Assembly: GCA_019245115.1 (NCBI GenBank)
Contig: JAFARZ010000211.1
Location: 36,688 to 100,687 of the forward strand
Direction: 5' to 3'
Source of the DNA: Streptosporangiaceae bacterium
GTDB lineage: Bacteria; Actinomycetota; Actinomycetes; Streptosporangiales; Streptosporangiaceae
DNA length: 64,000 nucleotides
This document shows positions 3,726-62,152 of this stretch, piece by piece. Position 1 is the stretch's first letter. Each line of letters opens with the position of its first letter. A program made the position numbers and the translations under genes. The notes beneath the pieces are model-generated. The model saw only the letters and a list, made by a program, of their open reading frames with translations. It was not told the origin of the DNA and searched no databases.

Positions 3726-3729
3726 ACTG

Positions 3730-3766: not shown

Positions 3767-3775
3767 TTCAACGGG

Positions 3776-12337: not shown

Positions 12338-12483
12338 CGGCAGCCTGAGGTATAGGAGTACCGCTCACATGCGCTGTTCTTGACGCCGACCGCGGTGGAA
12401 AGCCAGATGATCGCCAGGACCGAAAGCGCTAGGGCGAGAAGCACGGCGATTGCCGCCTGGACGGTTATACGTTGCACGCGCAT
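12334..12483 (-). CDS. Unannotated 49-aa single-TM small protein, last gene of the arc operon
   Basis: Below the ORF-track cutoff. GGAGG lies 3 nt before the ATG (12483), which is 13 nt after the arcA stop. MRVQRITVQAAIAVLLALALSVLAIIWLSTAVGVKNSACERYSYTSGCR, GC3 about 77%. Confidence 0.4.
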   Translation of the reverse strand: MRVQRITVQAAIAVLLALALSVLAIIWLSTAVGVKNSACERYSYTSGCR

Positions 12484-12496
12484 GCCTCCGGTTCGG

Positions 12497-13753
12497 CTAG
12501 TAGTCCACCGCGTCGCGGATCAGCGGGCAGGTCATGCAGTGCCCTCCGCCACGGCCACGGCCCAGTTCGGCGCCGACGATGGTAATAACCTCGATCCCGG
12601 CCTTGCGCAGCAGGGAATTGGTACGGGTGTTCCGGTCGTAGGCGACCACCACGCCAGGTGAGACGGCGACGAGGTTGTTGCCACTGTCCCATTGCTGCCG
12701 TTCGTCGGCGTATGCCTCGCCATCGAGGTTGACGACCCGCATCCGTGGGAGGTTCAAGGCGGCGGCCACCACGTCGGTGAACGAGTCTTTCTCGGCGGTG
12801 ACCTCGACCTGGGTTTTGTCGCCGGGCCTGAGCGTGAACGCTTCGATGCCGTCGACGATCTTCGGGAAGGTGGTCACGCAGTCGCGGTCGGCGAAGGTGA
12901 AGACCGTGTCCAGGTGCATGGCCGCGCGCAGTTTCGGCATGCCCGCCACGATCACCCGCTCGGCCGCGCCGTGATCGAACAGGGCCGCCGCGACCTGGGT
13001 GATCGCCTGGCGAGAGGTGCGCTCGCTCATCCCGATCAGTACTACGCCGTTGCCGGCCGGCATCACGTCTCCGCCCTCGAACGTGGCCTGGCCCCAGTCC
13101 TTTTCCGGATCGCCCCACCAGATCCGCGCACCGGTAAAGTCAGGATGGAAGGTGTAGATCGCCTTCATCAGCAGGGTCTCGTCGTGCCTTGCCGGCCAGT
13201 ACAGCGGGTTGAGCGTCACGCCGCCGTAGATCCAGCAGGTGGTGTCGCGGGTGTACAGAGTGTTCGGCAGCGGTGGCATGAGGTACTCGCGGATGCCGGT
13301 GTGCTCGCGGGCCAGCGCGAGATAGCCCGAGCGGAAATCCTGGGGTAGATCGGCGGTAGACAGCCCGCCGATCAGGAACTCCGCTAGCTTTCGTGGTTCA
13401 AGGCCGTCCAGGAAGGACCGCGTGTCGGCGACCAGCCCGAGGCCCACCTCGTTGGCGGTGACCTTGCGGTCGAGCAACCAGCGCTTCGCCTCCGGGCTGG
13501 CCAGGATTTCGGTCAGCAGGGTGTGAAGTTCCACCACCTCGACGCCGCGCTCGCGCATCCTGCTGACGAAGTCGAAGTGGTCACGACGGGCGTTCTGCAC
13601 CCATAGCACGTCATCGAACAGCAGGTCATCGCAGTTCGTCGGGGTCAGCCGCTCGTGAGCCAGCCCCGGGGCGCATACCAGGACTTTACGCAGCCAGCCG
13701 ACTTCGGAGTACACGCCGTACGATGCGGCCGGGGACGGAGTGGTATCTGTCAT
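12497..13753 (-). CDS. arcA: Arginine deiminase
   Basis: 418 aa. [17 protein letters not shown] near the N-terminus and the catalytic-Cys C-terminus [13 protein letters not shown]. Confidence 0.95.
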
Positions 13754-13763
13754 TCCGGTTCTC

Positions 13764-15215
13764 CTAGATGGTGATCGCGCCGCTCGCCAGCGCTACGATC
13801 CCGGTGATGAAGCCGGCGACGGCGATGACGAGGATGACTAGCTCCGCCGCGGAGAAGAGCCGCCGATTCTGCTCCCGCCGGGACATGATGAACAAGATCG
13901 TGCCGGGCGTGTAGATGATGAGCGACAGCAGCAGGAAGGTGACGCCCGCGGCGAAGACCAGGAACACGGTGTAGAAGGTGGCCAGCCCAGCGGCGAACAC
14001 TGCCCTGTTCCGGCTGCGCGGTGCCGTATCGTACGTTTCCCCGCTGGCCCCGAGCTTCAGGGCGTACCCGGCGGCGAGCAGGTAGGGGACGAGCGACAGC
14101 GAGCTGCATAGCTTCAGCATGAACGTGAAGGCATCGGAGGAGACCAGCGTGACCAGCAGCGCGGCCTGGATCAGGATGCTGGTCATCACCAGCGCGGGGA
14201 CCGGGACGCTTTTATCGCTGGTCCGGCGGAGGAAGGACGGCATGTCCTTGTCCTTGGCCGCCACGAACAGCACCTCGGCGGCCATCATCGTCCACGCCAG
14301 GTACGCGCCGAGCACTGACACGATCACCCCGACGCTGATGAACGCCAGCCCCCAGTGACCGACCACCGCTTCCATCGCTCCGGCCATCGACGGCTGCCGC
14401 AACTTCTCCAGCTCCGCACGGGACAAAATGCCATAGGAGAAGATCGTCACCGCGGCGAACAGCGCCAGCACGCCGAGGAACCCCATAACGGTGGCGCGGC
14501 CCACGTCTTGCCGCCGTCTGGCATACCTCGAGTACACGCTGGCGCCCTCGATGCCCAAGAACACGAACACCGTGATCAGCATGGTTCCCCGCACCTGGTC
14601 AAACAGGGCGCTGGCGGTCTTCGGCTCGCCACCCCAGAAGTTCGCACTGAACACGTGCGCCTTCAGCGCGAAGATCGCGACGACGACGAAAGTCAGGATC
14701 GGGACTATCTTGGCCACGGTCACGACCTTGTTGATCGTCGCGGCCTCCCGCATCCCGCGAGTGATCAGGATGTGGAAGATCCACAAGCCCGCTGATCCCA
14801 GTGCCACCGCGGCCAGCGTGTCGCCATGACCGAACACCCCCGGCCACAGCAGCCCCAGGGTAGAGGTGATCAGCACCCAGTAGGTGACGTTGCCGATGCA
14901 CGCGCTGGCCCAGTACCCGAAGGCGGAGAAGAAGCCCAGGTACTCACCGAAACCGGCCTTCGCGTAGGCGTACACTCCCGCGTCCAGTTCAGGCTTGCGC
15001 ACCGCCAGCGTCTGGAACACGAACGCCAGCATCAGCATCCCGGTGCCCGCGATCACCCACGCGATCAGGGCGCCAAATATTCCAGTGGACAGGGCGAAGT
15101 TACGGGGCAGCGAGAAGACCCCCGCGCCGACCATCGACCCCACCACCATCGCGGTCAGCGTGGTCAGCGGGAACTTCCGCACCTCCGCCGGGGCCTCGGC
15201 CTTGACGGTTGTCAC
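13764..15215 (-). CDS. arcD: Arginine/ornithine antiporter (APC superfamily, APA family)
   Basis: 483 aa. [22 protein letters not shown]...[29 protein letters not shown] resembles ArcD/YdgI. GTGA overlap with the upstream gene. Confidence 0.9.
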
Positions 15216-16771
15216 TCGCCCGCCCCCTGAACGTGGGCCGGATCATCACCCGGGTTGATGGTCGTGGAGAACTCCCGGGGCGCGGCGCCGGACCGCCCCG
15301 GCTCGACGGGCGCCGTTTTCTCGATCCTGAATCCGGTGATCCCGTACAGGACGCTCAGCGCCGGGCTCGCGTAACAGAAGATCGCGAACGGCAGGTATCG
15401 GAACGCCGAGACACCAAGCACGGCGCCCATGTACGCACCGCACGAGTTCCAGGCGATCAATGGCGAGCTGACCGTCGCGCTGTCGGCTGCCAGCCGGGAG
15501 AGATTGAACGGGGCTAGGCCGCGGCGGGCGAACTCGGCCCGGAACACCTTCACCGGCAGCACCAGGGCGATGTATTGATCGCCGGCGACGACATTGAGTC
15601 CGAAGGCTATGGCGAAAACGGTAGCGAAAAGCCTGCCCGTGCTCCTGGCCGCACGTATGAGCGGGTCGACCAGCCGGGAGATCAACCCGAAATGTTCAAG
15701 CAGCGTGCCGAACGTCACCGCGCCGATGATCAGCCAGACGGTCAGCAGCACGCTGTGCATGCCGCCCCGCGACAGCAGCCGGTCGATCTCTCCGGTGCCG
15801 GATCTGATCGAGAACCCGTTCGCCATTGCCAGCCAGATGCCCTTGATCGAGCCGACCACCGCTCCGGTGTCCTTGCCCACGAAATCCGCCATCACCTGGG
15901 GCTGCAGGAAGGCCCCCAGCACGCCCGCGAACAGCGCCGCGGCCGTCAGTGCCAGCGGAGCCGCCACCTTGCGGAAGGACAGCACGCCGAGTAGTAGCAG
16001 CGGCAGCAGATTCCAGCCGTTGACGTGGTAAATCTCGCCGATCTTTTTCAGCTCGATGTCTGTCGGCACCGGCGCGTGCACCTGCGCGCCCTTGACCAGG
16101 CCGAACACGAGCAGCACCACAAGGGCGATCATGAACGCCGGTACCGAGGTCCACGCCTGGCGCTTGACATGGTCCTCGACCCGGACCTTGACCAGCTGGG
16201 CGGTCAGGACCGTCGTCTCCGACAACGGTGAGAGCTTGTCTCCCAGGTAAGCACCCGAAACCACCGCCCCCGCGGTGATCGCGGTGGAGACGCCGATCCC
16301 GGAAGCCACGGCGACAAGGCCGACGCCGATCGTCCCCGCTGTGGTCCACGAGCTGCCGATGGTCAGCGAGACGATCCCGCAGATCAGCGCGCTGGCCCCG
16401 TAATACCACGCGGGCGAGAGAATTTTGATGCCGTAGTAGATGAGGGTCGGGATCGTACCGGACAGATTCCACACGCCGATCAATGCGCCAACCGCGAGCA
16501 GGATGAAAATCGCGCTCGCGATTGACGCCAGAGAATTCTGTGCCGCGTGCTGCACCTCATCCCAGGAATAACCGTTCTTCAGAACGATCACCGCGACGGC
16601 CAGTACGCACAGGATCAGCGCCACCTGGATCGGGCCATCCAGAGCGTCAAGACCAAACAATGCCAGCGAGCCAGCTATGAGCACGACCAGGGTGACCAGC
16701 GGGATGATGGCATCCGCCAGCGACGGATCGCGGACCTGTCCCGGCCCCCCAGGCGCGTCTGCGGTGATCAT
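15212..16771 (-). CDS. NhaC-family antiporter-type membrane carrier
   Basis: Start MITADAPGG with GGAGG 9 nt upstream. Polytopic sequence with NhaC-like architecture. First gene of the arc operon. Confidence 0.8.
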   Translation of the reverse strand: MITADAPGGPGQVRDPSLADAIIPLVTLVVLIAGSLALFGLDALDGPIQVALILCVLAVAVIVLKNGYSWDEVQHAAQNSLASIASAIFILLAVGALIGVWNLSGTIPTLIYYGIKILSPAWYYGASALICGIVSLTIGSSWTTAGTIGVGLVAVASGIGVSTAITAGAVVSGAYLGDKLSPLSETTVLTAQLVKVRVEDHVKRQAWTSVPAFMIALVVLLVFGLVKGAQVHAPVPTDIELKKIGEIYHVNGWNLLPLLLLGVLSFRKVAAPLALTAAALFAGVLGAFLQPQVMADFVGKDTGAVVGSIKGIWLAMANGFSIRSGTGEIDRLLSRGGMHSVLLTVWLIIGAVTFGTLLEHFGLISRLVDPLIRAARSTGRLFATVFAIAFGLNVVAGDQYIALVLPVKVFRAEFARRGLAPFNLSRLAADSATVSSPLIAWNSCGAYMGAVLGVSAFRYLPFAIFCYASPALSVLYGITGFRIEKTAPVEPGRSGAAPREFSTTINPGDDPAHVQGAGE

Positions 16772-16956
16772 TGTCGCTAACCTCCGGATGCGGACCTCCC
16801 GAACCATCCCCCGTGGCGGTGATCGCAAACGAAAGTCCCAGGTAGGCGACCTAATGGCCTTTCCGTTATGTACCAATTGTCGCACGCGGCAATCGCCTCA
16901 ATTCCATTTGGTACCTCTCCGGTGACGCCGATCGCCGGGAACACGATGTCTGGTAT

Positions 16957-18572: not shown

Positions 18573-18628
18573 GGTGGTGAATGTGCCATAGCACCCCCTC
18601 TATGGGGGACGATGGCACATTCACCCCC
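18573..18628. repeat. Nested palindromic element, copy P1
   Basis: GGTGAATGTGCCAT (18576-18589) and ATGGCACATTCACC (18612-18625) are perfect 14-bp arms. Inner CCCCC-tctat-GGGGG hairpin. Confidence 0.75.
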
Positions 18629-26469: not shown

Positions 26470-26489
26470 GGTTGGCCCCCCACTTGTGG

Positions 26490-26504
26490 AAACATCGGAT
26501 GTTT
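26490..26504. promoter_or_regulatory. Palindrome AAACATCGGATGTTT, candidate GntR operator
   Basis: 7-bp arms around one central nt, in the 47-bp gntR/amidohydrolase divergent spacer. Confidence 0.5.
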
Positions 26505-26516
26505 GCGGAGAATTAT

Positions 26517-27440
26517 ATGTTGGTCGACGCTCACCATCATGTGTGGGATCTCCGGGTCCGCGATCAGGACTGGATCGCCGGAGCCGAGTTGGCGCCGCTG
26601 CGCCGGAACTTCCTGGTCAGCGACTACGAACTGGTGGCCGCGGCGGCGGGCGTGACGGCGAGCGTGGTGGTGCAGACCGTCACCGTTCCCGGTGAAACTT
26701 CCGAACTGCTCGAGCTGGCTGATGCCAGTGCGCTGATCGCGGGCGTGGTCGGGTGGGTCGACCTGACCGCCGGTGATGTCGCCGATCGTCTAGCCGCGCT
26801 GCGCGCGCTGCCGGGAGGTTCGTGGCTGCGCGGCGTCCGCCACCAGGTGCAGAGCGAACCCGATCCCGGCTGGCTTATGCGCCCCGACGTCCTGCGCGGC
26901 CTGCGCGCCGTCGCCGCCGAAGGGCTGGTATATGACCTGGTCATCACGTCTGGCCAGTTGCCGGTCTCGGCGCGGGCCGCCAGCGCGGTGCCCGGACTGA
27001 CGTTCGTGCTCGATCACCTGGGTAAGCCGCCCATCGCCTCGGGTCAGATCGAGCCGTGGGCATCGGACCTGCGCCGTCTGGCCGCGCTGCCGAACACCGT
27101 GGCCAAACTGTCCGGCCTGGTCACCGAGGCTGACTGGAAACGCTGGCAGCGCGGCGACCTGCGCCCCTATGCCGAGGCGGCACTGGAGTCCTTCGGGCCT
27201 TCCCGGCTGATGTTCGGCTCCGACTGGCCGGTCTGCACGCTCGCCGCCAGCTACGACGACGTCCGGCGGGCCGCCCTCGACCTGACCGCCGCGCTGAGCC
27301 CCGCCGAACGCGACGCCCTGTTTCACGGCAGCGCCACACGTACCTACCGCCTCTCCCAGCCTTTACCCTCTCCCAGCCTTTCGCCTCTTCCAGAACGCCG
27401 GTCAGGTATCCGGCCGTCAATTTGTCGCTTTGTGCAGTGA
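26517..27440 (+). CDS. Amidohydrolase_2-family protein (candidate L-fucono-1,5-lactonase)
   Basis: Start MLVDAHHHVWDL (metal-binding HxH). FGSDWPV near the C-terminus. The Pro/Ser-rich tail may be a read-through extension. Confidence 0.85.
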   Translation: MLVDAHHHVWDLRVRDQDWIAGAELAPLRRNFLVSDYELVAAAAGVTASVVVQTVTVPGETSELLELADASALIAGVVGWVDLTAGDVADRLAALRALPGGSWLRGVRHQVQSEPDPGWLMRPDVLRGLRAVAAEGLVYDLVITSGQLPVSARAASAVPGLTFVLDHLGKPPIASGQIEPWASDLRRLAALPNTVAKLSGLVTEADWKRWQRGDLRPYAEAALESFGPSRLMFGSDWPVCTLAASYDDVRRAALDLTAALSPAERDALFHGSATRTYRLSQPLPSPSLSPLPERRSGIRPSICRFVQ

Positions 27441-27523
27441 CTTTTCCGTACCGTGGCGACATTTCACGATAACGTGCGTTCGCGGGTTTTTGGCAATTCC
27501 GTCTCCGCTGAGATGCCCAGCCC

Positions 27524-27682
27524 GGTGAACTTGCAAATATCGCCGCATAGCGGGCACCGGGCTGGGCATCTCGTGGAAGATCGGAGCCCTCCGGAAGAAA
27601 AGGTGCCGGAAACCAGCACCCTTTCCTCCGCGAGGCCCTTTTCTTCCACCTCGTCCACCGCAACCGCCACCCACATACAAAG
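27524..27682 (+). repeat. Structured intergenic repeat, copy A
   Basis: Aligns end to end with 31625-31798 (reverse strand) and 60998-61172. Core nested hairpin at 27575-27647. Confidence 0.75.
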
Positions 27683-27932
27683 TTTTAAGATCCAGGATCC
27701 CCAGCGTGCCATTGACGCCATCGGCTCGGGGTGGCCGGTCGGCCAGATCGTTGCCCTTCACCTCCATATAGCGCGGAAATTACATGCTACGTGGAATTTT
27801 GCCCGCCGTATTTGTGCATTTAATTTCCGTGCAGCATGGATGTTCCGCCTTAATCCACACCTAGTTCAAGACTTACCGGACATTCAGGGAAATCCAGCGG
27901 CGGCGGGAAGCGCGGCTGCGGGCCGGAGAATG

Positions 27933-28328
27933 CTATCCGCGCGGGCCGTCCTGCCAGATGCCGATGACGTTGCCGGCCGGGTCGCGGATGGTGGCTACCC
28001 ACAGGTTCCCTTCCGGGTAGGGCGGGGTGACCAACTCGGCGCCGCGGCCGATCGCCGCGCGCATCGTGGCGTCGAGGTCGGTGACGTAGATGTAGGGCAG
28101 CACGCCGGCTTCCCCGGCGGCGGGCAGATCGGTGCGCCAGTGCCCGATGACGTGGCCGGTGCCGTCGCTGAAGCTCGGCTCCGCCGCGGAGCCGCGCAGT
28201 TGCCATCCGAAGACGGCCCGGTAGAAGTCCGCTGATTCCGGCACGTCGCGGGCGGGGATGCGCAGGTAAGACACGCCGCCTGGCCGGGCCACCGTGCCCT
28301 CTACCCCCGGGTCACTCTGATCGGTCAT
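27933..28328 (-). CDS. VOC/glyoxalase-family protein
   Basis: Start MTDQSDPG. YLRIPARDVPESADFYRAVFGW...RDPAGNVIGIWQ is typical of the family. Confidence 0.85.
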   Translation of the reverse strand: MTDQSDPGVEGTVARPGGVSYLRIPARDVPESADFYRAVFGWQLRGSAAEPSFSDGTGHVIGHWRTDLPAAGEAGVLPYIYVTDLDATMRAAIGRGAELVTPPYPEGNLWVATIRDPAGNVIGIWQDGPRG

Positions 28329-28359
28329 CGCTGGTCGCCTCCTGCCTGCGTGACGCCTC

Positions 28360-28809
28360 TTACTCGAAACGGTATCCGCCGTCGGTGGTGAGCCAGACCG
28401 GGGTCCGGCCGTGACGCAGCGCGGGAATCCGCTCGGGGTCATGGGTAGGTTTGAGGATGTAGCCCTTTGCCTCATCCAGCGGATCGTGGCCTTCCAGCCG
28501 TTCCATGCAACCCGTCGAGGGGGTGCCCAGGACCGTGATGAGGTTCGCCGGGGAATCGCCGCGGGTGCGGTTGCGCCGCCAGATCGTGTACCGCTGCCCG
28601 ATGACGCTTTCCCCGCAGCAGAAGCACCGGTAACCGTCCCGCTCCAGCACGAGCCACATCGTCTGCGGGGAAAGGTGTCTCGGCCGCGACGTGTTCGGCC
28701 CGGGCGTCTCCCCGCGATAGTGGTCGTTCTCGGCCGCGACGCGGCGGCTCAGCGCGTTGTAGTAAATCAGGTGCGAGCGACTGTGGGTCATATTGATGTG
28801 ACTGGCCAA
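28360..28809 (-). CDS. HNH-endonuclease-like protein, possibly degenerate
   Basis: ERDGYRCFCCGESV...YTIWRRNRTRGDSPANLITVLG...TGCMERLE has an HNH zinc-ribbon layout. The usual His positions read W/R and M. Confidence 0.55.
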   Translation of the reverse strand: MASHINMTHSRSHLIYYNALSRRVAAENDHYRGETPGPNTSRPRHLSPQTMWLVLERDGYRCFCCGESVIGQRYTIWRRNRTRGDSPANLITVLGTPSTGCMERLEGHDPLDEAKGYILKPTHDPERIPALRHGRTPVWLTTDGGYRFE

Positions 28810-28894: not shown

Positions 28895-30670
28895 TCACGG
28901 AAGCGTCGTCAGGTGGGGCGCCACCGTGCTGGCGAAGTTGTAGCCGTTGGACGCGTCCCAGTTGATGGACCACGTCATCACGCCGCGGATGCCCGGGTAG
29001 CTGCTGGATGGGACGAAGCTGCCGCAATTGGTTCGTGCGGCCAGGCAGTCCAGGGCCGCGTTGACCACCGAAGGCGACACGTAACCACTGCCGGCCGCCG
29101 AGGGGGAGGAGGGCAGCCCGAGGCCCACCTGGGAGGCCGAGAGCCCGCCCTGCAACTCGGTGCAGGCCAGCGCGGTCATGAAGTTCTCGGTGCCTTCGGA
29201 GTAGACGTTCCCGTCACAGCCGTTCATTGAGCCCGAGTTGTAGTACTGCGTGTTGATCATCGTGAGGATGGACTTGATGTTCAGCGCGAGCTGGAAGTAG
29301 TCGTTGCCGGTGGACTGCGTGTCCACGGTCTGCGGCGCCAGCGTGATGATCAGGCTGGAGCCCACGTCGCTTTCCAGCTGCTCCAGCGCTGACGCCATGA
29401 ACTGCGGGTTGACGCCGTTCTCCAGGTCGATGTCGACGCCGTTGAACCCGTACTGCTGAATGATCGAGTCCACGCTGCTGGCGAAGCTGGCGGCGCTGGT
29501 GGCGTCGTTGACGCTGATCGTGCCGTTCTGGCCGCCGACCGACAGGATGACCTTCTGGCCACGGGCCTGGAGCGTGTGGATGTCGCTGATGAACTGCTGC
29601 TGGGTGTAGCCGCCGAGCGCCGAGGACAGGCCGGAGTCGAGGCTGAACGTGACCTGCCCCGGCGTGCTGTCCGAATCGCCGAACGCGACCGCGATCAGGT
29701 TGTAGCTGGCCGGCGCGTCGGCCAGGGTCAGCGGCTGGGCGCCGTTGGTGAAGTCCTGCCAGTAACCCATCAGCAGATGCGCGGGGAGCCCGCTCCCACC
29801 GCCGCCCCCGCCACCCGACGCGGTGGTGGCGTTGACCTGGCTGGACTGCGGGGACTGGCCGGCCGGGTTGTAGGCGGCCACGGTGAAGGTGTAGGTGGTC
29901 GATGCGGCGAGGCCGGTCACCGTGTCACTGGTTCCGGTCACGTTGGCCACCTGGGAACCATTGGAGTACACGAGGTAGCCGGTGACGGTCCCGGACGGAG
30001 CGGTCCAGGACAGCGACACCGACGACGACGTGGTACCGGTGACCGTCAGGCCGGTCGGGGCCGCTGGCGCGGTCCCGCCGCCTCCGCCGCCGTTGCCCGC
30101 CGGTCCGGTCAGCGACAGGTTACCGGCGTAGAAGGTCGGCTGGGCGTACCAGCCATGGACGTACACGGTCACGCTGGTCGTGCTGGCACCGGTGGTGAAG
30201 CTGGTGGACAGCTGCGTCCACGAAGTGGCCGAAGGCGTCCAGGCGTCGGTGTCGCTGCTCCCGGTTCCGCTGTCACCGAGGAAGACGTAGTCGCCTTGCA
30301 CCAAGCCGGTCAGCGTATAGGAAGAATCGGGCTGAACGCTGACGACCTGGCTGCACTGCGCGTCGTCGCTGCTGGTCGGCGTCCCGGCCAGCGCGTGCGA
30401 CGAACCCGGGGCGACCGGCGAGGACACCACCGTGTCGCCGGACGAGCACGTCCACCCGGCGGTGCTTCCGGTCGCGAAGTCGCCGTTGGTGAGCAAGCTG
30501 GACTGCGCCGACGCGGCGGGCGCCGTGAACCCCACGGCCAACCCCACCGCCAGCAACGCGGCCGGAACAAGCGACCCCGCCAGCCGCAGCCGCCGGCGGG
30601 CGCGGAACGGGCGCGAGAGAACCGCTCGAAGGCGGCCATTACTCAGGCGGGAACGGGACGGATCTCTCAC
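28895..30670 (-). CDS. Secreted GH18 chitinase with N-terminal carbohydrate-binding module and Fn3 domain
   Basis: Signal peptide ending ...APAASAQS, CBM-like beta-sandwich, Fn3 (APTGLTVTGTTSSSVSLSWTAP) and catalytic FNGVDIDLE (DxDxE). Confidence 0.9.
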   Translation of the reverse strand: MRDPSRSRLSNGRLRAVLSRPFRARRRLRLAGSLVPAALLAVGLAVGFTAPAASAQSSLLTNGDFATGSTAGWTCSSGDTVVSSPVAPGSSHALAGTPTSSDDAQCSQVVSVQPDSSYTLTGLVQGDYVFLGDSGTGSSDTDAWTPSATSWTQLSTSFTTGASTTSVTVYVHGWYAQPTFYAGNLSLTGPAGNGGGGGGTAPAAPTGLTVTGTTSSSVSLSWTAPSGTVTGYLVYSNGSQVANVTGTSDTVTGLAASTTYTFTVAAYNPAGQSPQSSQVNATTASGGGGGGGSGLPAHLLMGYWQDFTNGAQPLTLADAPASYNLIAVAFGDSDSTPGQVTFSLDSGLSSALGGYTQQQFISDIHTLQARGQKVILSVGGQNGTISVNDATSAASFASSVDSIIQQYGFNGVDIDLENGVNPQFMASALEQLESDVGSSLIITLAPQTVDTQSTGNDYFQLALNIKSILTMINTQYYNSGSMNGCDGNVYSEGTENFMTALACTELQGGLSASQVGLGLPSSPSAAGSGYVSPSVVNAALDCLAARTNCGSFVPSSSYPGIRGVMTWSINWDASNGYNFASTVAPHLTTLP

Positions 30671-30782
30671 ATGACCTCCAGCGCGGTGAGGCCGCTCCCC
30701 AATTAATAGTAAAGTTTCTTAAAAGTTAATGCATAGCGTAACTCCAGCACCGCCCCCCGTCAATCCCTCCCCGTCGGCCCGC

Positions 30783-30912
30783 CGCAACGGCAGGGCCCAC
30801 CGGCCGCCCGGCAACAGCAGGCCCACCGGCCGCCCGGCAACAGCACACCCACCGGCGGCGCGGCAACAGCAGGCCCACCGGCGGCGCGGCAACGGCAAGG
30901 GCCGTCGGCTAC
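30783..30912. repeat. About five tandem copies of a 26-bp unit CGGCAACAGCAGGCCCACCGGCSGCS
   Basis: Units begin at 30783, 30809, 30835, 30861 and 30887. The period is not a multiple of 3. Lies 110-240 nt upstream of the chitinase start. Confidence 0.8.
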
Positions 30913-31173
30913 TACCGGAAGTCCGCGCGCAGTGCCCTGGGGACTAATCCAGAAATGTCGGGTATCGCCGACGAGGCGTAGCTGATGATCCGTAAATAGG
31001 TGCGGAGCGAGACTCTTGTGTTAGGCGTGGTGCTACCTACACGCCGCACAGCGTCGGGGGCGTCGGCGGCTATTCACCAAGCGTCGTGGGCTTGTACCAG
31101 CCCGGCAGGTCCAGGCGCAGGGAGCCCAGGTACACATCTTGCCACGCTCATCCCGCCTGCATCAGGGAGCGCG

Positions 31174-31227
31174 CGGATGGATGTGGCAGCGACCCGGTTA
31201 TAACCGGGTCGCTGCCACATCCATCCG
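31174..31227. repeat. 54-bp perfect palindrome
   Basis: cGGATGGATGTGGCAGCGACCCGGTTA|TAACCGGGTCGCTGCCACATCCATCCg, with no mismatch and no spacer. Confidence 0.9.
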
Positions 31228-31300
31228 ACAAGGATCCGAATTTGGATCGCTGACGCTACCTGAATAGTCGCCACGACGAGGGTGCAATACGCGAGGCGTA

Positions 31301-31367
31301 TCGATGGCGCCATCGATGTCGTTACGGCGGACAATTTCGGGCGCCATCGACATGGATGGCGCCATCG
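31301..31367. repeat. Cluster of GATGGCGCCATC palindromes
   Basis: TCGATGGCGCCATCGA at 31301-31316, GGCGCCATCGA at 31340-31350 and GATGGCGCCATC at 31355-31366. Confidence 0.65.
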
Positions 31368-31419
31368 TCGCATGTGCGGAGGAACGCAGCCGGAAGCATG
31401 CATCGCGGGAGCGGCGGAG

Positions 31420-31620
31420 TCGCGGGCGGCCGCGGGCCTGCGACCCGGGTGCCGGCCTGCCGGCCCGACCCGGCGCTGGCACGCGGACCCGGCCGCGGGC
31501 CTACGGACCCGGGTGCGCCCTGGGACCCGGGCGCCGGCCTGCGGACCCGGGTGCCGGGCTGCCGGCCCCGACCCGGGTGCCGGGCTGCCGGCCCGACTGG
31601 GGCGCCGGGCTGCTGCTGGC
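31420..31620. repeat. Degenerate GC-rich tandem array of about eight GACCCGGG-initiated 18-26-bp units
   Basis: Unit starts at 31442, 31467, 31486, 31506, 31524, 31544, 31570 and 31595. Irregular period, non-coding. Confidence 0.7.
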
Positions 31621-31624
31621 GTCC

Positions 31625-31798
31625 GGTTTGCTGGGACGTGACCGTTATGTGTACGGCGGTTGTGCCGGAAGATGCGGAAGAAAGGGGCCTCGTGGAAAGT
31701 TGGGCGCTGGTTTCCAGCACCTTTTTCTCCAAGGGGCTCCTTTTTTCCATGAGATGGCGGGCGGGTGCCCCGTTGTGCGGTGATATGCGTAGCTCACC
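31625..31798 (-). repeat. Structured intergenic repeat, copy B (reverse orientation)
   Basis: The reverse complement aligns with copies A and C. Core hairpin at 31667-31748. Confidence 0.75.
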
Positions 31799-32008
31799 GT
31801 ATCCCTTCGCATACCCAGTGACATAAGCTGACCGGGGGCGCGGAGCGTGCGAGGGTCGCTGCAGGTTACACGGGACCGGGCGAGGGGCGTGTGGCGGGTC
31901 GGCTGCCGGGACTGTATGTGTGACTGCGGATGATCTCCCGTGCTGTTGACGGCGATCGTGATCTGTGCTTACTTACAGAGTAGGGTCGATACGAACAGGA
32001 CAGGTCTA

Positions 32009-32212
32009 ATGGCTACGAGTAATGACCCCCTGCTGGAGACGCGTTTCTTCACCGTGGGCGAGATCGCCAGGATCGCACGGGTATCGAAGATGACCGTGTA
32101 CCGCGAAGTTCACGCGGGGCGGCTTGACTCGGTGCGCATCGGACGATCATTCCGCATACCAGAGGAATCAGTACGTCGGTGGCTGGGCGGCCCGCTCGCT
32201 GCCACGGCCTGA
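32009..32212 (+). CDS. Small excisionase-family (MerR-like HTH) DNA-binding protein
   Basis: 67 aa. FFTVGEIARIARVSKMTVYREVHAGRLDSVRIGRSFRIPEESVRRWL. No integrase nearby. Confidence 0.75.
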   Translation: MATSNDPLLETRFFTVGEIARIARVSKMTVYREVHAGRLDSVRIGRSFRIPEESVRRWLGGPLAATA

Positions 32213-33079
32213 CTGAGCTGACGCTGAACCAGGAACCGCGGCCAGCGCCAGGGGGAACCGCTCCCGCACCGTCGCCGCGGTCCGATCTGGCGACGCTTCC
32301 CATACGTCGGCGTTGAAGATCTCGACTTCGATGTAACCGTCATATCCGGCCGCCGTCACGGCGGCCGATATCGGCGGGAAGTCGATCACGCCGTCGCCCA
32401 CATGCCCCCGGCCCAGAAGCACGTCGGCGGGCAGCGGCAGCACCCAGTCGCACACCTGGTAACTGACGATCCGTCCGGCCGCGCGGGCGATGTCATCCAG
32501 CACCCGAGCGTCCCACCAGACGTGATACGTGTCCACGACGACGCCCACCGCGTCCGCGGGGAACCGCAGCGCGAGTTCCACCGCCTCGCCCAGCGAGCTG
32601 ATCACGCACCGGTCGGCGCAGAACATGGGATGCAGGGCCTCGATCCCCAGCCGGACCCCCAGTCGCTGCGCGTCCGGCACCAGGTCGCCCATCGCGTCGG
32701 CGATCAGGCGCCGGGCCAGGGCTAGATCGTGGCATCCGGTCGGCAGGCCACCGGACACCAGGACGAGCGTGTCAGCGCCGAGTTCGGCCGCTTCGGCGAT
32801 GGCGGCGCGGTTGTCCGCCAGCGCGGCGGCGCGCTCTCGCGGATCGATGTGCGTGAAGAACCCGCCCCGGCACAGGCTTGACACGTAGAGCCCGGCGGCG
32901 CGTACCGCGGCCGCCGACTCGGCCAGGCCGAACTCGGCGACCCGGTCCCGCCACAGTCCGATCGCCGGGATGCCGTGACGGACACACAGGTCCGCTGTCT
33001 GCGCCACCGTCAGCTTCTTGACCGTCGCCTGGTTCAGCGACAGCCGGCGCAGGCCGAGACCGTCCTCCTCCCAAGCCAT
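32168..33079 (-). CDS. Sugar phosphate isomerase/epimerase (xylose-isomerase-like TIM barrel)
   Basis: Start MAWEEDGLGLRRLSLNQATV. ATGA overlap with the DUF993 stop. LGIEALHP and IEVEIFN motifs. Confidence 0.85.
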   Translation of the reverse strand: MAWEEDGLGLRRLSLNQATVKKLTVAQTADLCVRHGIPAIGLWRDRVAEFGLAESAAAVRAAGLYVSSLCRGGFFTHIDPRERAAALADNRAAIAEAAELGADTLVLVSGGLPTGCHDLALARRLIADAMGDLVPDAQRLGVRLGIEALHPMFCADRCVISSLGEAVELALRFPADAVGVVVDTYHVWWDARVLDDIARAAGRIVSYQVCDWVLPLPADVLLGRGHVGDGVIDFPPISAAVTAAGYDGYIEVEIFNADVWEASPDRTAATVRERFPLALAAVPGSASAQSGRGSERAAQPPTY

Positions 33080-34248
33080 CACGACAGACCTCTCAGCAGC
33101 CCGGTCATCCGGTCGACGGCCAATCCGGGATCGGCCAGCGCACCCGCCTCGGCGGCCAGCTCGAACAGCCGGATCAGATGACCGGCGGGCCGCGCCCGTT
33201 CCAGCCCGCCCACCATGGCGAAATGCGGCTGCAGTCCGTTCAGCCACGCGAGAAACGCCACGCCGGTCTTGTAGTAGGGCGTCGGCTCCTCGAAGATCAG
33301 CCTGCTGAGCGGAACTGTCGGCCCGATGGCGGCGTCGTAGCCGGCCACGTCGTCGGCGTCCAGCGCTCGCAGCGCCGCGGCGGCCGGGCGGGTGATGGCG
33401 GCGAAGGCGCCGAGCAGGGCGTCGCTGTGCCCGGTCGCGTCCCCGCGAATCAGGTCGGCGTAGTTGAAGTCGTCGCCGGTGTAGAGCCGCACACCCGGCG
33501 GCAGCCGCCGCCGCAGCGAGACCTCCTGGGCGGCGTCCAGCACCGACAGCTTGATGCCGTCGATCTTTTCCCCGGCGTGGCTGGCCAGCTCCAGCACCGT
33601 GCGGGACGCGGTATCGAAATCCACGCCACCCCAGTAGCCGCGCAGGGCCGGGTCGAACGCCTCGCCGAGCCAGTGCAGGATCACCGGCCGGTCGGCCTGC
33701 TTCAGCAGGGTGCGGTACACCTCGATGTAGTCGTTCGGCCCGGTTGCGTCCGCGGCGAGCGCCCGGCTCGCCATCAAGATCACGTCGGCCCCTTGCGACT
33801 GCACGAACTCCATCTGCTCGGTGTACGCGCGGATGATCTCGCCGATGGAGTAACCGCCGTCCGCGAGCAGGTGATCGGTGCCGGCCCCGCAGGCGAGGCT
33901 CGCGTAGCGGCCCTCCGCGCGGCGCTGCGCCGCCAGCGCCGACGATCGCGTGATCAGCTCGCGGGCCTGCCGCCATTTCAGCCCCATGCCGCGCTGCGCC
34001 GTGTCCATCGCCTCGGCCACGCCGAACCCGTGCGACCACAGGTGATCACGGAAGCCCAGTGTGGCCTCCCAGTCGACTGTGTTGACTTTGCCTGGGCCTG
34101 CGGCCGCGGCGCCTTCGGCCGGCGTGGCGGCCACGTGGGCCGCGGCGTAGACCCGCCGGGAGGCCGGCGGCGGATAGCCGGCCGCCCAGCCCGGCAGGCT
34201 GATCTCGGTCGGTTCCGGTCGTCCCGGCAGCTGGATACGAGCGGTCAT
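33079..34248 (-). CDS. DUF993 / dihydrodipicolinate-synthase-like family protein (family name recalled from memory)
   Basis: 389-aa TIM-barrel-like sequence (VDWEATLGFRDHLWSHGFGVAEAMDTAQRGMGL...). ATGA overlap with the upstream oxidoreductase. Confidence 0.75.
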   Translation of the reverse strand: MTARIQLPGRPEPTEISLPGWAAGYPPPASRRVYAAAHVAATPAEGAAAAGPGKVNTVDWEATLGFRDHLWSHGFGVAEAMDTAQRGMGLKWRQARELITRSSALAAQRRAEGRYASLACGAGTDHLLADGGYSIGEIIRAYTEQMEFVQSQGADVILMASRALAADATGPNDYIEVYRTLLKQADRPVILHWLGEAFDPALRGYWGGVDFDTASRTVLELASHAGEKIDGIKLSVLDAAQEVSLRRRLPPGVRLYTGDDFNYADLIRGDATGHSDALLGAFAAITRPAAAALRALDADDVAGYDAAIGPTVPLSRLIFEEPTPYYKTGVAFLAWLNGLQPHFAMVGGLERARPAGHLIRLFELAAEAGALADPGLAVDRMTGLLRGLS

Positions 34249-40089: not shown

Positions 40090-40143
40090 GGGGTGAATGT
40101 GCCATCGTCCCCCCTATGGGGCGTGCGATGGCACATTCACCCC
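40090..40143. repeat. Nested palindromic element, copy P2 (inverted relative to P1)
   Basis: Perfect 18-bp arms GGGGTGAATGTGCCATCG / CGATGGCACATTCACCCC. Starts 4 nt after the amine oxidase stop and contains the enolase-family gene's TGA (40137-40139). Confidence 0.75.
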
Positions 40144-41273
40144 CCGCTGCCGTAGACGCGGTAGCGCTCCAGGTCGGCCCAGCGGACGGAAAGCCCGAGC
40201 CCGGGCCGGCCCGGGTCGGGCCGCAGTGCTCCGCCGCCTGGCGACAGGACGCCGTCGAACGCCATCGACTCCAGGCGGACGTGGGTGTGGAAGTACTCCA
40301 GATGCCGCAGCCGCGGGACACCGCAGAAGGCGTGTGCGCTGACCGCGGGCGCGCAGTGCGCGGACAGATCCAGCTGACGGGCCTCGCAAAGCCCGCCGAC
40401 CTGCAGCAGCCCGGTGATGCCGCCGCACCGGGTGACGTCCGCCTGCAGGCAGTCGACCGCCCCGAGCAGCGTGCCGAAATCCGGTGTCAGGTACCCGTAC
40501 TCACCGGCCGCGATGTCCAGCCCGGCCGGGCCGTGGTCGCGGAGCAGCCGCAGCCCTTCGACGTCGAGAGAACTCACCGGCTCCTCGAACCAGGACACCC
40601 GCCATTCGCCGGCGAACCGGTCCGCCCAGTACAGGGCGGCCTTCCGGCTCAGCGCGCCGTTGGCGTCGGTGAACAGTTCGACGCCGTCGCCCGCCTCTTT
40701 GCGCACCGCCGACAGCCGTGCCGGGTCGGCCGACGGATCCCGGGAGGTCTTGATCTTCATCCGGGGAATCCCCGCCGCCGCCCACCCGGAGACCTGCGAA
40801 ATGAGCCGGGGCAGCGGATAGTTGGTGAGCCCGCCGCTGCCGTAGACCGGCACCTCATCGCGGAATCCCGGTAGCGCCCGGTACAGCGGCTCGCCGGTGA
40901 GCCGCGCCTTGAGGTCCCACAGCGCGATGTCGACCGCGGATACCGCCATCGCCCCGATGCCGGGCTGGCCGGCGTTGCGTAGCTCGGCGAACATGGTGCG
41001 CCAGGCCGAGGCCGGCGCCAGCGCGTCCATGCCGGTAACGACCGAAACCAGTTTGGATTGCACCAGCGTCGCGGTAGCCACGTCGCCGTAGGTGTAGCCG
41101 AGGCCGGTGACACCGCCCGCGGTCGCCTCGACCAGCACGAGGACGGTGGACGACCAGGACAGCGTGCCGTCCTGTTCCATACCGTCCGGGCCGTCCACCG
41201 GGATCTCGAACGCGTGGACGGCGACATTCTCTACAGGTATGGTCCCGGCCGGGACATTTGATGGGATCACCAT
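40137..41273 (-). CDS. Enolase-superfamily enzyme (mandelate racemase/muconate lactonizing family), substrate unknown
   Basis: Start MVIPSNVPAG after AAGGAA. MAVSAVDIALWDLKARL, KIKTSRD, FTDANGA, WFEEP and AAGEY motifs. Confidence 0.85.
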   Translation of the reverse strand: MVIPSNVPAGTIPVENVAVHAFEIPVDGPDGMEQDGTLSWSSTVLVLVEATAGGVTGLGYTYGDVATATLVQSKLVSVVTGMDALAPASAWRTMFAELRNAGQPGIGAMAVSAVDIALWDLKARLTGEPLYRALPGFRDEVPVYGSGGLTNYPLPRLISQVSGWAAAGIPRMKIKTSRDPSADPARLSAVRKEAGDGVELFTDANGALSRKAALYWADRFAGEWRVSWFEEPVSSLDVEGLRLLRDHGPAGLDIAAGEYGYLTPDFGTLLGAVDCLQADVTRCGGITGLLQVGGLCEARQLDLSAHCAPAVSAHAFCGVPRLRHLEYFHTHVRLESMAFDGVLSPGGGALRPDPGRPGLGLSVRWADLERYRVYGSGG

Positions 41274-60973: not shown

Positions 60974-60997
60974 ACGCGACCTGGTCCTGGTCGGCCT

Positions 60998-61172
60998 AGT
61001 GAACTACGCGTACCGATACATAGCGGCACATGGCCATCCCTCAGCGGGAAGAAAAGAGCCCTCTGGAAGAAAGGGCGCCGGAAACCGGCGCCCTATGCTC
61101 CGCGAAGCTCTTTTCTTCCGCGTCTTCCACCGCAGTCGCCGTCACATAACGGTCATATCCTGGCAAAATCGG
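60998..61172 (+). repeat. Structured intergenic repeat, copy C
   Basis: Best-folding copy. Outer stem GGAAGAAAAGAGC/GCTCTTTTCTTCC (13 bp perfect), apical stem AGGGCGCCGG-aaa-CCGGCGCCCT (10 bp perfect). Core at 61046-61119. Confidence 0.75.
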
Positions 61173-61489
61173 CGCCCGCCACGACACGTCGCGAACTCGA
61201 TTTGCTTTGGACGCTCACGTGGTGCAAGGAAAGCACCGCTAAGCCATTGACAGCTACTTTTTGACGGCATTTAAGGTGGAAATATGCGGAAGCGGCGGAC
61301 GTTTCACCGCCAGTTGGCCTAATAGCTGATTGGCGCAACCAGCCCTGCTCGCGATATCACCAATAGGGGCACCAAACCTTGCGCCGAATCGGCTTATAAC
61401 TTAAAGTAGCAATGAAATTACCGCTAGCTACCCTCCGCTGGCTGGGCGCCCTCGTAGTCCCGTTACATCACTCAATGAGGGGAATTTCC

Positions 61490-62083
61490 ATGTCCCGCAA
61501 ACGCCTGTACACCATCTCAATCAGCGCCTCGATCATCACAGCAGCCGTCGCCGCCGCATCGCTACTGACCGGTCCGGCCTCCGCCGCGCCAAAACAAATA
61601 CAACAGCCACCTACCGTCGTCATCGGACCCGACTCGGGCCCTGGCGGCTGGTCCGAAGCGACATGCCCGGCCGGTACCCAGCTCGTCGGCGGCGGCTATG
61701 AAAGTAGCCCCGTCCGGGACGGCTATGGCAATCCCGTCGATGCCCTTAGGGCAAGCGCGCCTTCTCTCAACCCCAACGCCTGGCTGGCCCACATGGACAA
61801 AGGCAGCGTCAGGGCCACTGCCATGTGCGTCACGTCTTCGGCCCCGCCACCCCTGATCGTCACGGGCCCGCCCGGGACGGCCGGCTACTGGTCCATCGCG
61901 ACCTGCCCGGCCGGCACAGTACTCGCCGGCGGCGGCTTCATCGCCACCGCCATCGCCCACAACGGCCTCGGGAACCCGGTCGACACTGAAACCGGCGGCA
62001 CCGCCACCATGAGTCCCCCGAATTCCTGGGCGGACAGGTGGTTCGCGGGCACGGTCATAGCCAGGGCTATGTGTACTTCGTAG
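61490..62083 (+). CDS. Secreted protein made of two tandem Cys-containing repeats, unknown family
   Basis: Start MSRKRLYTISISASIITAAVAAASLL after GAGGGG. Both halves carry ATCPAGTxLxGGG...GNPVD...AMC. Confidence 0.7.
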   Translation: MSRKRLYTISISASIITAAVAAASLLTGPASAAPKQIQQPPTVVIGPDSGPGGWSEATCPAGTQLVGGGYESSPVRDGYGNPVDALRASAPSLNPNAWLAHMDKGSVRATAMCVTSSAPPPLIVTGPPGTAGYWSIATCPAGTVLAGGGFIATAIAHNGLGNPVDTETGGTATMSPPNSWADRWFAGTVIARAMCTS

Positions 62084-62105
62084 ACCTCGAAGGAAAAGGC
62101 CCCAT

Positions 62106-62144
62106 GGAAGATAAGGCGCCTCGGGTTCCGGCACCTTATCTTCC
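62106..62144. terminator. Hairpin-only member (copy D) of the structured repeat family, likely bidirectional terminator
   Basis: GGAAGATAAGGCGCC-tcgggttcc-GGCACCTTATCTTCC, preceded by GGAAAAGGCCCC. Sits in the 69-bp gap between convergent genes. Confidence 0.55.
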
Positions 62145-62152
62145 ACGGATCC

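What the first reader, a model, noticed from the sequence alone, without database searches (positions are those of the whole stretch)
27524..27682. Dispersed about 170-nt structured intergenic repeat: three full copies and one hairpin-only copy in 64 kb
Copies A (27524-27682, +), B (31625-31798, -) and C (60998-61172, +) align over their whole length. Each has a 5' block (GGTGAACTnCGC..CCGCAnAGCGGGCAC), a central long nested hairpin (GGAAGAAAAGRGCC..GGAAGAAARGG-YGCCGG-AAA-CCRGYRCC..GCYCTTTTCTTCC) and a 3' block (CTTCCRSCRCARYCGCCGTnCACATAACGGTCA). One-nt indels and equal conservation of all frames argue against coding. The apical 8-bp stem shows compensatory variation: C-G pairs in C correspond to T-A, T.G or C.A in A and B. 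Copy D (62106-62144) keeps only the hairpin and sits between convergent genes. I see no terminal inverted repeats, no transposase, and no match to any RNA or IS family I know. One full copy per about 20 kb implies a high genomic copy number.
Basis: seen in the sequence. Interest (0 to 1): 0.7.

Follow-up and report, generated by a model that had tools for sequence, protein, structure and literature searches.

The report
Decayed copies of a palindrome-seeking MITE
The repeated 170-base "structured RNA" is the middle part of a roughly 300-base non-coding jumping element (a MITE) that has multiplied to over 100 copies in an uncultured soil or rock actinobacterium and inserts at the tips of DNA hairpins; the copies in this window are broken relics, so it is a new example of a known kind of genomic parasite.

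Summary
The repeat is real. Copies A, B and C match each other at nhmmer E 1e-50 to 1e-56, and D is a hairpin-only match. I recovered about 100 further copies from metagenome contigs of the same population (JGI Ga0213881/Ga0213875; a Streptosporangiaceae MAG). These show a complete element of 299 nt with imperfect terminal inverted repeats of about 36 nt (GTGCGCG…/…CGTTCAC). All 14 complete copies are flanked by a 2-bp direct target duplication of variable sequence. The element has no conserved ORF and no Rfam match. Its GC content is 56% against 68% for the genome, and 106 of 107 copies are intergenic. Each complete copy sits at the dyad of a pre-existing palindrome, and one uninterrupted copy of the usual host palindrome was found. 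The window copies are truncated relics: A covers core positions 10-227, B 76-251, C 69-299, and D only the hairpin. Across 76 copies the central hairpin shows no covariation beyond shuffled controls, so an RNA role is not supported. Best reading: a new MITE family whose insertion resembles IS30 (2-bp duplication at the centre of palindromic targets). The partner transposase was not found. Interest is moderate to low.

The parts
27428..27677 (+). Copy A: decayed, 3'-truncated element. It holds a left host-palindrome arm remnant (about 27428-27454) plus core positions 10-227 (27464-27676). The right third and the right terminal repeat are missing. They are replaced by sequence shared only with L065.
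   Evidence: nhmmer against the 393-nt profile gives positions 15-269, E 2.5e-36. Against the 299-nt core profile it gives positions 10-227, E 3.4e-33. The 3' flank is homologous to L065.
27574..27650 (+). Central nested hairpin of copy A.
   Evidence: MFE -38.5 kcal/mol, z -5.67 against 200 shuffles.
31624..31798 (-). Copy B: middle fragment only (core positions 76-251). Both terminal repeats are missing. It lies in a 1.5-kb non-coding stretch full of other repeats.
   Evidence: nhmmer core profile E 2e-23. Identical to L045. Hairpin 31674-31750 folds at -37.7 kcal/mol, z -6.39.
60992..61218 (+). Copy C: 5'-truncated element (core positions 69-299) with an intact right terminal repeat ending ...GGACGCTCAC at 61218.
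   Evidence: nhmmer core profile E 1e-63, alignment shown. 89% identical over 222 nt to the copy in MAG contig L001.
61219..61251 (+). Remnant of the right arm of the host palindrome next to copy C (GTGGTGCAAGGAAAGCACCGC...).
   Evidence: The 393-nt profile match extends to position 373, window 61251. Compare the ATGGTGCACAAAAGTCACCAC arms.
61046..61122 (+). Central nested hairpin of copy C.
   Evidence: MFE -48.7 kcal/mol, z -7.49.
62083..62149 (.). Copy D: solo hairpin (core positions about 140-204) between convergent genes 61412-62083 (+) and 62153-62881 (-). It folds best as minus-strand RNA and is followed there by CCUUUUCCUUC, so it may act as the terminator of the SDR gene.
   Evidence: nhmmer E 1e-7. 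Minus strand -40.8 kcal/mol, z -6.1; plus strand -28.3, z -2.6. Weak terminator-like call on the minus strand. Conserved at the orthologous site in L077 with two A-T to G-C pair changes.

Best explanation
The window holds four dead fragments of a non-autonomous DNA transposon (MITE) family. The complete element is 299 nt, starts GTGCGCG[T/C]GCCAAAATAACGTGCG and ends CGGAACG[TT/CG]CAC. It has imperfect terminal inverted repeats of about 36 nt, a central nested double hairpin and no gene. It is presumably moved in trans by a DDE-type transposase encoded elsewhere in the genome. That enzyme would bind the terminal repeats and cut the target with a 2-bp stagger, leaving a 2-bp duplication.

The element inserts preferentially at the symmetry axis of palindromic, hairpin-forming intergenic DNA, such as terminator-like palindromes and other palindromic repeats. 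This produces nested, onion-like palindromes. Old copies lose one or both ends and drift, which gives the A, B, C and D pattern.

Shown: the repeat family, its true boundaries, the terminal repeats, the 2-bp duplication, the palindromic flanks, an uninterrupted copy of the host palindrome family at another locus, the intergenic bias, and the lack of ORF or covariation.

Inferred: mobilisation in trans, the DDE chemistry, and the IS30-like affiliation.
For: (1) Boundaries and terminal repeats. Eleven young copies average 91% pairwise identity over 297-300 nt. The ends match as an inverted repeat at 25 of 36 positions.

(2) Target duplication. All 14 complete copies carry the same dinucleotide on both sides: AT in 7, GG in 3, and AG, CG, CT, CC once each (L074 after a 2-nt register correction seen). 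The 6 dinucleotides that are not self-complementary are direct, not inverted, so flank symmetry does not explain them.

(3) Palindromic targets. Flanks joined with one duplicate removed fold as hairpins. The junction lies in the apical loop in 11 of 14 copies, against 79 of 400 random sites. Ungapped complementarity of the 30-nt flanks averages 18.3, against 8.5 (maximum 17) in controls. At least five unrelated or diverged host palindromes are used, for example in L062 and L055.

(4) Uninterrupted host palindrome. One paralogous copy of the usual host palindrome, without the core, lies in L020 near 790-930...GGTGACTTTTGTGCAGCATAGTGCACCAAAGTCACC.... It shows that this palindrome family exists without the core. 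The core occurs in both orientations within this host type.

(5) Non-coding. The longest open frame changes frame and strand among copies, and lengths differ by 1-2 nt.

(6) Distribution. 106 of 107 copies are intergenic although about 66% of the DNA is coding. Flanking genes are convergent in 22, tandem in 15 and divergent in 9. Core GC is 55.7% against 67.9%.

(7) Variable truncations, as in known MITE families (PMC10969869).

(8) A syntenic relative about 85% identical (L002, 13.8 kb) has no copy.

(9) IS30 inserts at the central 2 bp of near-palindromic hot spots and makes 2-bp direct repeats (PMC9333248). IS elements of five families target REP palindromes, and ISRm22 does so at the palindromy axis (PMC1525189).
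Against: No autonomous partner carrying these terminal repeats was found in 614 kb of related loci, in the window, or in viral contigs.

No clean filled-versus-empty comparison exists for any window copy. At the A site the relative L002 lacks about 1 kb that includes a glyoxalase gene, not just the element.

Many complete copies share the same host palindrome and the same AT duplication. Some of the 14 may therefore be amplifications of a composite (palindrome plus core) rather than independent insertions. Independent events are probably 6-8.

A second subfamily shares the 5' block and hairpin but has different outer parts, so the family is mosaic and its history is not fully resolved.

The terminal repeats are only about 70% identical.
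Confidence: 0.8

Rival explanations
1. A family of structured non-coding RNA genes or cis-regulatory RNAs. The nested hairpin would be the functional fold, kept by selection.
For: The hairpins are very stable (z -5.7 to -7.5). The centre is the best conserved part of the family. It is shared by two subfamilies with different flanks. The orthologous D hairpins in the window and in L077 differ by two A-T to G-C pair swaps.
Against: There is no covariation above shuffled controls in 76 copies. There is no Rfam match even at E<=1 apart from chance miRNA hairpin hits. Copies are truncated at arbitrary points. They lie in any orientation to neighbouring genes and are enriched between convergent genes. 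Terminal repeats and target duplications have no RNA explanation. Caveat: the 3' arm of the hairpin was fixed by my search pattern, which weakens the covariation test.
Confidence: 0.06
2. A REP/REPIN-type palindromic repeat spread by a RAYT (IS200/IS605-like Y1 transposase) acting on single-stranded hairpins.
For: The repeat is palindromic, intergenic, high in copy number and often lies between convergent genes. Solo hairpin copies such as D exist. It forms mosaic clusters with other repeats, like BIMEs.
Against: Complete copies have a 2-bp direct target duplication. By my knowledge of IS200/IS605-type Y1 transposition, that mechanism does not produce one. The unit is 299 nt with terminal repeats, much larger than the REPINs I know of (my recollection, about 70-130 nt). 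No RAYT was seen, though I did not search for one systematically.
Confidence: 0.05
3. The hairpins are host transcription terminators or mRNA-stabilising 3' structures that were duplicated with their surroundings. On this view the repeat reflects function, not mobility. This may hold for individual copies (exaptation), especially D.
For: D lies 4 nt downstream of the stop of the minus-strand SDR gene. It folds at -40.8 kcal/mol on that strand, is followed by CCUUUUCCUUC, and keeps its stem in the 90%-identical relative through paired changes. Copies are enriched between convergent genes.
Against: This does not explain the 299-nt unit, the terminal repeats or the target duplications. The terminator-like calls in the region do not exceed shuffles: 3 against 1.4 +/- 1.2. 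A, B and C are not placed as terminators of a specific gene. C lies 200 nt after one gene and 190 nt before the next, both on the same strand.
Confidence: 0.07
4. Insertion by a site-specific recombinase (IS110/IS1111-like or serine-recombinase IS607-like). In that case the flanking dinucleotide would be a shared crossover core rather than a true duplication.
For: IS110-family elements are the commonest REP-targeting insertion sequences (PMC1525189). Identical dinucleotides at both junctions are also what a 2-bp crossover would leave.
Against: The dinucleotide varies among copies (AT, GG, AG, CG, CT, CC), whereas a crossover core is fixed for a given element (my knowledge of IS110, IS621 and IS607). 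The element has clear terminal inverted repeats, which most IS110 members lack (PMC1525189).
Confidence: 0.02

Closest known systems
Prokaryotic MITEs (e.g. Chunjie of Geobacter uraniireducens, QMITE1/2 of Coxiella, Correia elements of Neisseria)
   Same: Under 500 bp, terminal inverted repeats, short direct target duplication in young copies, no transposase, intergenic, lower GC than the genome, stable stem-loop when single-stranded. There are a few full-length copies and many truncated ones that look like REPs (PMC10969869, section 2).
   Different: No sequence similarity to any of them is known to me, and I had no MITE/IS library to test this. The host is a high-GC uncultured Streptosporangiaceae; the 2024 review does not mention Actinobacteria, Streptomyces or Mycobacterium at all. 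The terminal repeats are long (about 36 nt) and imperfect. Insertion is at palindrome apices. The partner IS is unknown.
IS30-family transposition (E. coli IS30)
   Same: The target strands are attacked 2 bp apart, giving 2-bp direct repeats. Preferred non-IR targets are nearly palindromic hot spots, with insertion at the central 2 bp (PMC9333248). Here there is a 2-bp duplication at the dyad of palindromic flanks.
   Different: No IS30-family transposase was found, and the terminal repeats were not compared with IS30-family ends. Other families with small duplications (IS5 subgroups, from memory) are not excluded. The targets here are long hairpins of unrelated sequence rather than one consensus.
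REP-targeting insertion sequences (IS1397, ISKpn1, ISPsy8, ISRm22, ISPpu9/10, IS621)
   Same: Insertion into extragenic palindromes, for ISRm22 exactly at the palindromy axis. Host palindromes often lie between convergent genes (PMC1525189).
   Different: Those are autonomous elements with 3- or 6-bp duplications or none, and each targets one REP family. Here a non-autonomous element with a 2-bp duplication uses several unrelated palindromes.
REP / BIME / REPIN and pneumococcal BOX mosaic repeats
   Same: Palindromic, intergenic and modular. Central module, arms and other repeats combine in different ways. Solo hairpins exist.
   Different: REPINs lack target duplications and depend on RAYTs. 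BOX and BIME modules are shorter. The complete unit here behaves as one terminal-repeat-bounded transposon.

Membership tests
MITE (miniature inverted-repeat transposable element) | Small size (typically <500 bp) and no transposase gene | tested here: met
   The complete core is 297-300 nt in 10 of 11 young copies. No open frame is conserved in frame or strand.
MITE (miniature inverted-repeat transposable element) | Terminal inverted repeats | tested here: met
   The first 36 nt match the reverse complement of the last 36 nt at 25 positions. Both termini read GTG...CAC.
MITE (miniature inverted-repeat transposable element) | Direct target-site duplication flanking young copies | tested here: met
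   A 2-bp duplication is present in 14 of 14 complete copies, with 6 different dinucleotides.
MITE (miniature inverted-repeat transposable element) | Multiple dispersed copies, with evidence of insertion (empty sites) | tested here: met
   107 distinct copies on 74 contig stretches. One paralogous, uninterrupted copy of the usual host palindrome was found in L020. No orthologous empty site was obtained for any copy.
MITE (miniature inverted-repeat transposable element) | A related autonomous IS with matching terminal repeats that supplies the transposase | tested here: inconclusive
   None was found in the window, in 614 kb of loci or in viral contigs.
IS30-family derivative | 2-bp target duplication at the centre of a near-palindromic target | tested here: met
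   compared with PMC9333248.
IS30-family derivative | Terminal repeats homologous to those of an IS30-family element; IS30-type DDE transposase in the genome | not testable with these tools
   No IS-end library (ISfinder) was available and no partner element was recovered.
REP/REPIN (RAYT-dependent) | No target duplication; short palindromic unit; associated RAYT gene | tested here: not met
   A 2-bp duplication is present. The unit is 299 nt with terminal repeats. I did not search for a RAYT.
Structured RNA family (Rfam or novel) | Match to a curated covariance model | tested here: not met
   0 hits at gathering score in the window. On a complete copy only chance miRNA-hairpin hits appeared, far below their gathering scores.
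Structured RNA family (Rfam or novel) | Covariation supporting the fold | tested here: not met
   76 copies, 30 pairs: paired cells 84.6% against 84.8% shuffled, covariation score 0.097 against 0.095, reached by 155 of 500 shuffles. Caveat: ascertainment fixed the 3' arm.

The most novel reading that the evidence does not exclude
The element may be a structure-seeking transposon that recognises hairpin or cruciform DNA, or palindromic symmetry as such, rather than a sequence. It inserts at the apex with a 2-bp stagger. Repeated insertions into palindromes, including other mobile palindromes and possibly its own hairpin, would build the nested onion-like palindromes seen here. The partner could be an uncharacterised actinobacterial transposase. 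The conserved central double hairpin, shared by two subfamilies and kept by paired changes at D, might be a functional module (terminator or protein-binding site) that the host has recruited.
Probability: 0.3. Interest if true: 0.55.

Novelty: new member of a known kind. Interest (0 to 1): 0.35.

Why it matters
Practical value. The family explains why this genome assembles into fragments. It marks over 100 intergenic sites in one uncultured Streptosporangiaceae lineage and should be masked before searches for non-coding RNA, because a partial copy looks convincingly like a structured RNA.

Biological value. The 2024 MITE review I read does not mention Actinobacteria at all. An element with a 2-bp duplication that lands on the symmetry axis of several unrelated palindromes is a clean natural data set for studying how transposases choose symmetric or hairpin targets. 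It also shows how nested mosaic repeats (BIME-like) arise. If some insertions sit in terminators between convergent genes, they may alter termination or mRNA stability.

None of this overturns current understanding.

Tried and rejected
(1) Rfam at gathering score on the window, and at E<=1 on a complete copy. Nothing relevant.

(2) A strict 28-nt apical-stem pattern against GTDB genomes. It gave only one locus, the MAG. In hindsight it was too narrow, and it used the only genome scan.

(3) BLAST of copy C against PLSDB plasmids. No match.

(4) Exact-protein look-up of the amidohydrolase next to A. Not on record. Its homologue P0002 gave the syntenic relative L002. There the A site differs by a 1-kb indel that includes a glyoxalase gene, so it is not a clean empty site.

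(5) Search for an autonomous partner. Terminal-repeat BLAST over all loci found only MITE copies. All-against-all megablast found no IS-sized repeats. A degenerate terminal-repeat pattern against IMG/VR gave 0 hits. The 4.6-kb window-specific block 12341-16947 encodes arginine deiminase, an amino-acid permease and an antiporter, not a transposase.

(6) Coding hypothesis. Rejected.

(7) The idea that the 393-nt unit (core plus arms) is the element. Rejected, because the arms differ completely in L062 and L055 while the core and the 2-bp duplication stay the same, and the arm palindrome exists without the core.

(8) A fuzzy-regex terminal-repeat search timed out.

(9) Terminator and promoter scans around the copies gave nothing above shuffles.

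Full report
OBSERVATION. The four stretches exist as described. A profile built from A, B and C finds exactly those three in the 64-kb window: E 1.2e-50 to 1.4e-56. It also finds a hairpin-only match at D (E 4e-8), and the reverse-strand echoes expected of a palindrome. The central hairpins are far more stable than shuffled sequence, z -5.7 to -7.5. The window is 68.8% G+C. Rfam gives no hit at gathering score.

CONTEXT IN THE WINDOW.
- A lies between an amidohydrolase gene (26472-27440, +) and a glyoxalase-like gene (27933-28475, -).
- B lies in a 1.5-kb non-coding, repeat-rich gap between a GH18/fn3/CBM gene (28895-30670, -) and a xylose-isomerase-like TIM-barrel gene (within 32168-34039, -).
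- C lies between an SDR gene (ends 60790, +) and a secreted repeat protein gene (61412-62083, +).
- D lies between that gene and a convergent SDR gene (62153-62881, -).

MORE COPIES.
- A strict apical-stem pattern found one locus among GTDB genomes: a Streptosporangiaceae MAG, CP_BM_RX_R8_33 (L001).
- A looser pattern (GGAAACCNGCNCC, 12-16 nt, GCYCYTTTCTTCC) found 74 contig stretches in JGI metagenomes, nearly all from Ga0213881 and Ga0213875.
- The window belongs to this population. Window 1-1015 is 99.9% identical to L050, window 30960-32099 is 100% identical to L045, and the MAG locus L001 is 99.2% identical to L022.
- nhmmer finds about 110 non-overlapping matches, 107 of them distinct, in 614 kb. 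The prediction of high copy number is therefore correct.

TRUE ANATOMY.
- Aligning copies with 100-300-nt flanks shows conservation well beyond the 170-nt unit on both sides.
- Among the youngest copies (mean 91% pairwise identity), a sharply bounded core of 297-300 nt stands out. It runs from 5'-GTGCGCG[T/C]GCCAAAATAACGTGCGTTTGCGGCATG... to ...GACACGCCGCAGACTCGATTTGTTTCGGAACGTTCAC-3'.
- Its ends are an imperfect inverted repeat, with 25 of the first 36 positions identical.
- Against this model the window copies are fragments: A covers core 10-227 (27464-27676, with a host-arm remnant from 27428); B covers 76-251 (31624-31798); C covers 69-299 (60992-61218, right end intact); D covers only about 140-204.
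- Truncation points across the family are scattered.

TRANSPOSITION SIGNATURES.
- In all 14 complete copies the dinucleotide just before GTGCGCG equals the dinucleotide just after ...CAC: AT in 7, GG in 3, and AG, CG, CT, CC once each. L074 needs a 2-nt register shift, visible.
- Because the flanks are palindromic, AT and CG would repeat anyway. GG, AG, CT and CC (6 copies) would become their complements under mere symmetry, yet they are direct repeats. This is a 2-bp target-site duplication.
- Outside the duplication, the two flanks of each copy are inverted complements of each other. This holds for flanks of quite different sequence: the common 'P' type ...GGTGACTTTTGTGCACCAT|core|ATGGTGCACAAAAGTCACC..., a related type with GTAGGAC arms, and unrelated ones in L062 (GGGCTGTGGCCC...CCCCCG) and L055 (GCCGCGGCGGTTACCGTCCC).
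- Joining the flanks and removing one duplicate gives hairpins with the junction in the apical loop in 11 of 14 copies, against 79 of 400 random positions. Ungapped arm complementarity averages 18.3 of 30, against 8.5 (maximum 17) in controls.
- One paralogous, uninterrupted copy of the P palindrome lies in L020 near 790-930. It reads ...GTGCAGCATAGTGCAC... where filled sites read ...GTGCACCAT[core]ATGGTGCAC....
- The core occurs in both orientations within P-type hosts: L063 and L052 against L014, L047, L061 and L068.
- The whole of arms plus core folds into a rod of about 400 nt, -177 to -187 kcal/mol. I take this to be a consequence of nesting.

NOT AN RNA, NOT CODING.
- Open frames are not conserved in frame or strand, and copy lengths differ by 1-2 nt.
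- A complete copy hits only miRNA-hairpin models in Rfam, far below their thresholds.
- On 76 distinct hairpins with the 30-pair nested structure, paired cells are 84.6% against 84.8% in shuffles. The covariation score is 0.097 against 0.095, reached by 155 of 500 shuffles.
- At the two stem columns left free by my pattern, changes are independent transitions: C-G in 47, U-G in 20, U-A in 2, C·A in 7.
- Caveat: the pattern fixed most of the 3' arm, so compensated variants were under-sampled. A few unselected copies do carry matched variant arms.

DISTRIBUTION.
- Only 1 of 107 copies lies mostly inside a predicted CDS, although about 66% of the DNA is coding.
- Flanking genes are convergent in 22 cases, tandem in 15 and divergent in 9. 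This fits insertion into 3'-end palindromes.
- Core G+C is 55.7% against 67.9%.
- A syntenic relative about 85% identical (L002, 13.8 kb) has no copy. At the A site it lacks about 1 kb that includes the glyoxalase gene, so this is not a clean empty site.
- A 90%-identical relative (L077) has a different subfamily copy at the C site. It keeps D with two A-T to G-C pair swaps.
- That second subfamily shares the 5' block and hairpin but has other outer parts. The family is therefore mosaic.

MECHANISM.
- The best-supported reading is a MITE moved in trans by a transposase that makes 2-bp staggered cuts at the dyad of palindromic DNA.
- IS30 does exactly this at its near-palindromic hot spots: it inserts at the central 2 bp and leaves 2-bp direct repeats (PMC9333248).
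- Insertion into extragenic palindromes, sometimes at the palindromy axis, is documented for IS elements of five families (PMC1525189).
- The family fits the published definition of prokaryotic MITEs, including the mix of a few full-length and many truncated REP-like copies (PMC10969869).
- The partner element was not found, so the IS30 affiliation is an inference about how it works, not a membership claim.
- D, and perhaps other copies, may have been recruited as terminators. This is suggestive only.

VERDICT. The repeat is real and abundant but was misdelimited and misread. It is a new MITE family in an uncultured Streptosporangiaceae with an interesting preference for palindrome apices, and the window holds only relics. 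Novelty: new member of a known kind. Interest: about 0.35.

Noticed in passing
window 18573-18627 and 40090-40144 (weaker: 11197-11249, 31176-31228): A second palindromic repeat family of about 55 nt (GGTGAATGTGCCAT...ATGGCACATTCACC), 89% alike between the two best copies. The stretch around the 18573 copy (about 130 nt) is absent at the orthologous site of the relative L002, but the boundaries are not clean.
   Followed up: partly
window 31174-31227; window 30990-31267 and L071 1105-1405: A perfect 54-nt palindrome (27-nt arms, no spacer) lies 400 nt from copy B. The surrounding 280 nt is 83% identical to a stretch next to a complete element in L071. This is another repeat family that co-occurs with the MITE.
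   Followed up: no
window 30770-30897 and 31441-31597: Tandem arrays with a 26-nt period and related G+C-rich direct repeats fill the non-coding gap around copy B, upstream of the GH18 gene.
   Followed up: no
L020 about 790-930; flanks of L014, L037, L052, L063, L047, L061, L068: The usual host palindrome 'P' is itself a dispersed repeat of at least 140 nt. In some copies it is enclosed by a further inverted-repeat layer that starts CTAGAGC...GGTCAAGTA and ends ...TACTTGACC...GCTCTAG. These are nested palindromic elements, possibly other MITEs.
   Followed up: partly
L005 4865-4986, L077 100-330, L073 12648-12865, L054 6709-6822, L046 3040-3183: A second subfamily shares the 5' block and double hairpin. 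It has a different 5' leader (GGGCGGCACAAATCCC) and 3' part (GGCYCTTAATTTCCACGCAAYTGGACGG...). Its ends and any duplication were not defined.
   Followed up: partly
window 62083-62149 and L077 1282-1340: The orthologous D hairpins differ by two paired A-T to G-C changes that keep a 15-17-bp stem. This is compatible with selection on a terminator, or with gene conversion from another family member.
   Followed up: partly
window 27357-28360 and 12341-16947, compared with L002: There are two window-specific blocks relative to the 85%-identical syntenic contig. One is about 1 kb with copy A and a glyoxalase-family gene. The other is 4.6 kb encoding arginine deiminase, an amino-acid permease and a Na+/H+ antiporter-family protein.
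   Followed up: partly
L009 1812-3069 and 4243-5512: A 1.27-kb direct duplication (90% identical) brackets an element copy at 3699-4044.
   Followed up: no
window 61412-62083 (internal repeat 61643-61697 / 61883-61937): The gene between C and D encodes a secreted 223-aa protein with two copies of a Cys-containing module (ATCPAGT..GGG). It has no Pfam match. Its homologues are few, and distant Streptomyces relatives carry PF07936.
   Followed up: partly
window 46531-46638: A 12-nt periodic Pro/Thr-rich repeat lies inside the 1030-aa ORF 43896-46988, probably a linker region.
   Followed up: no
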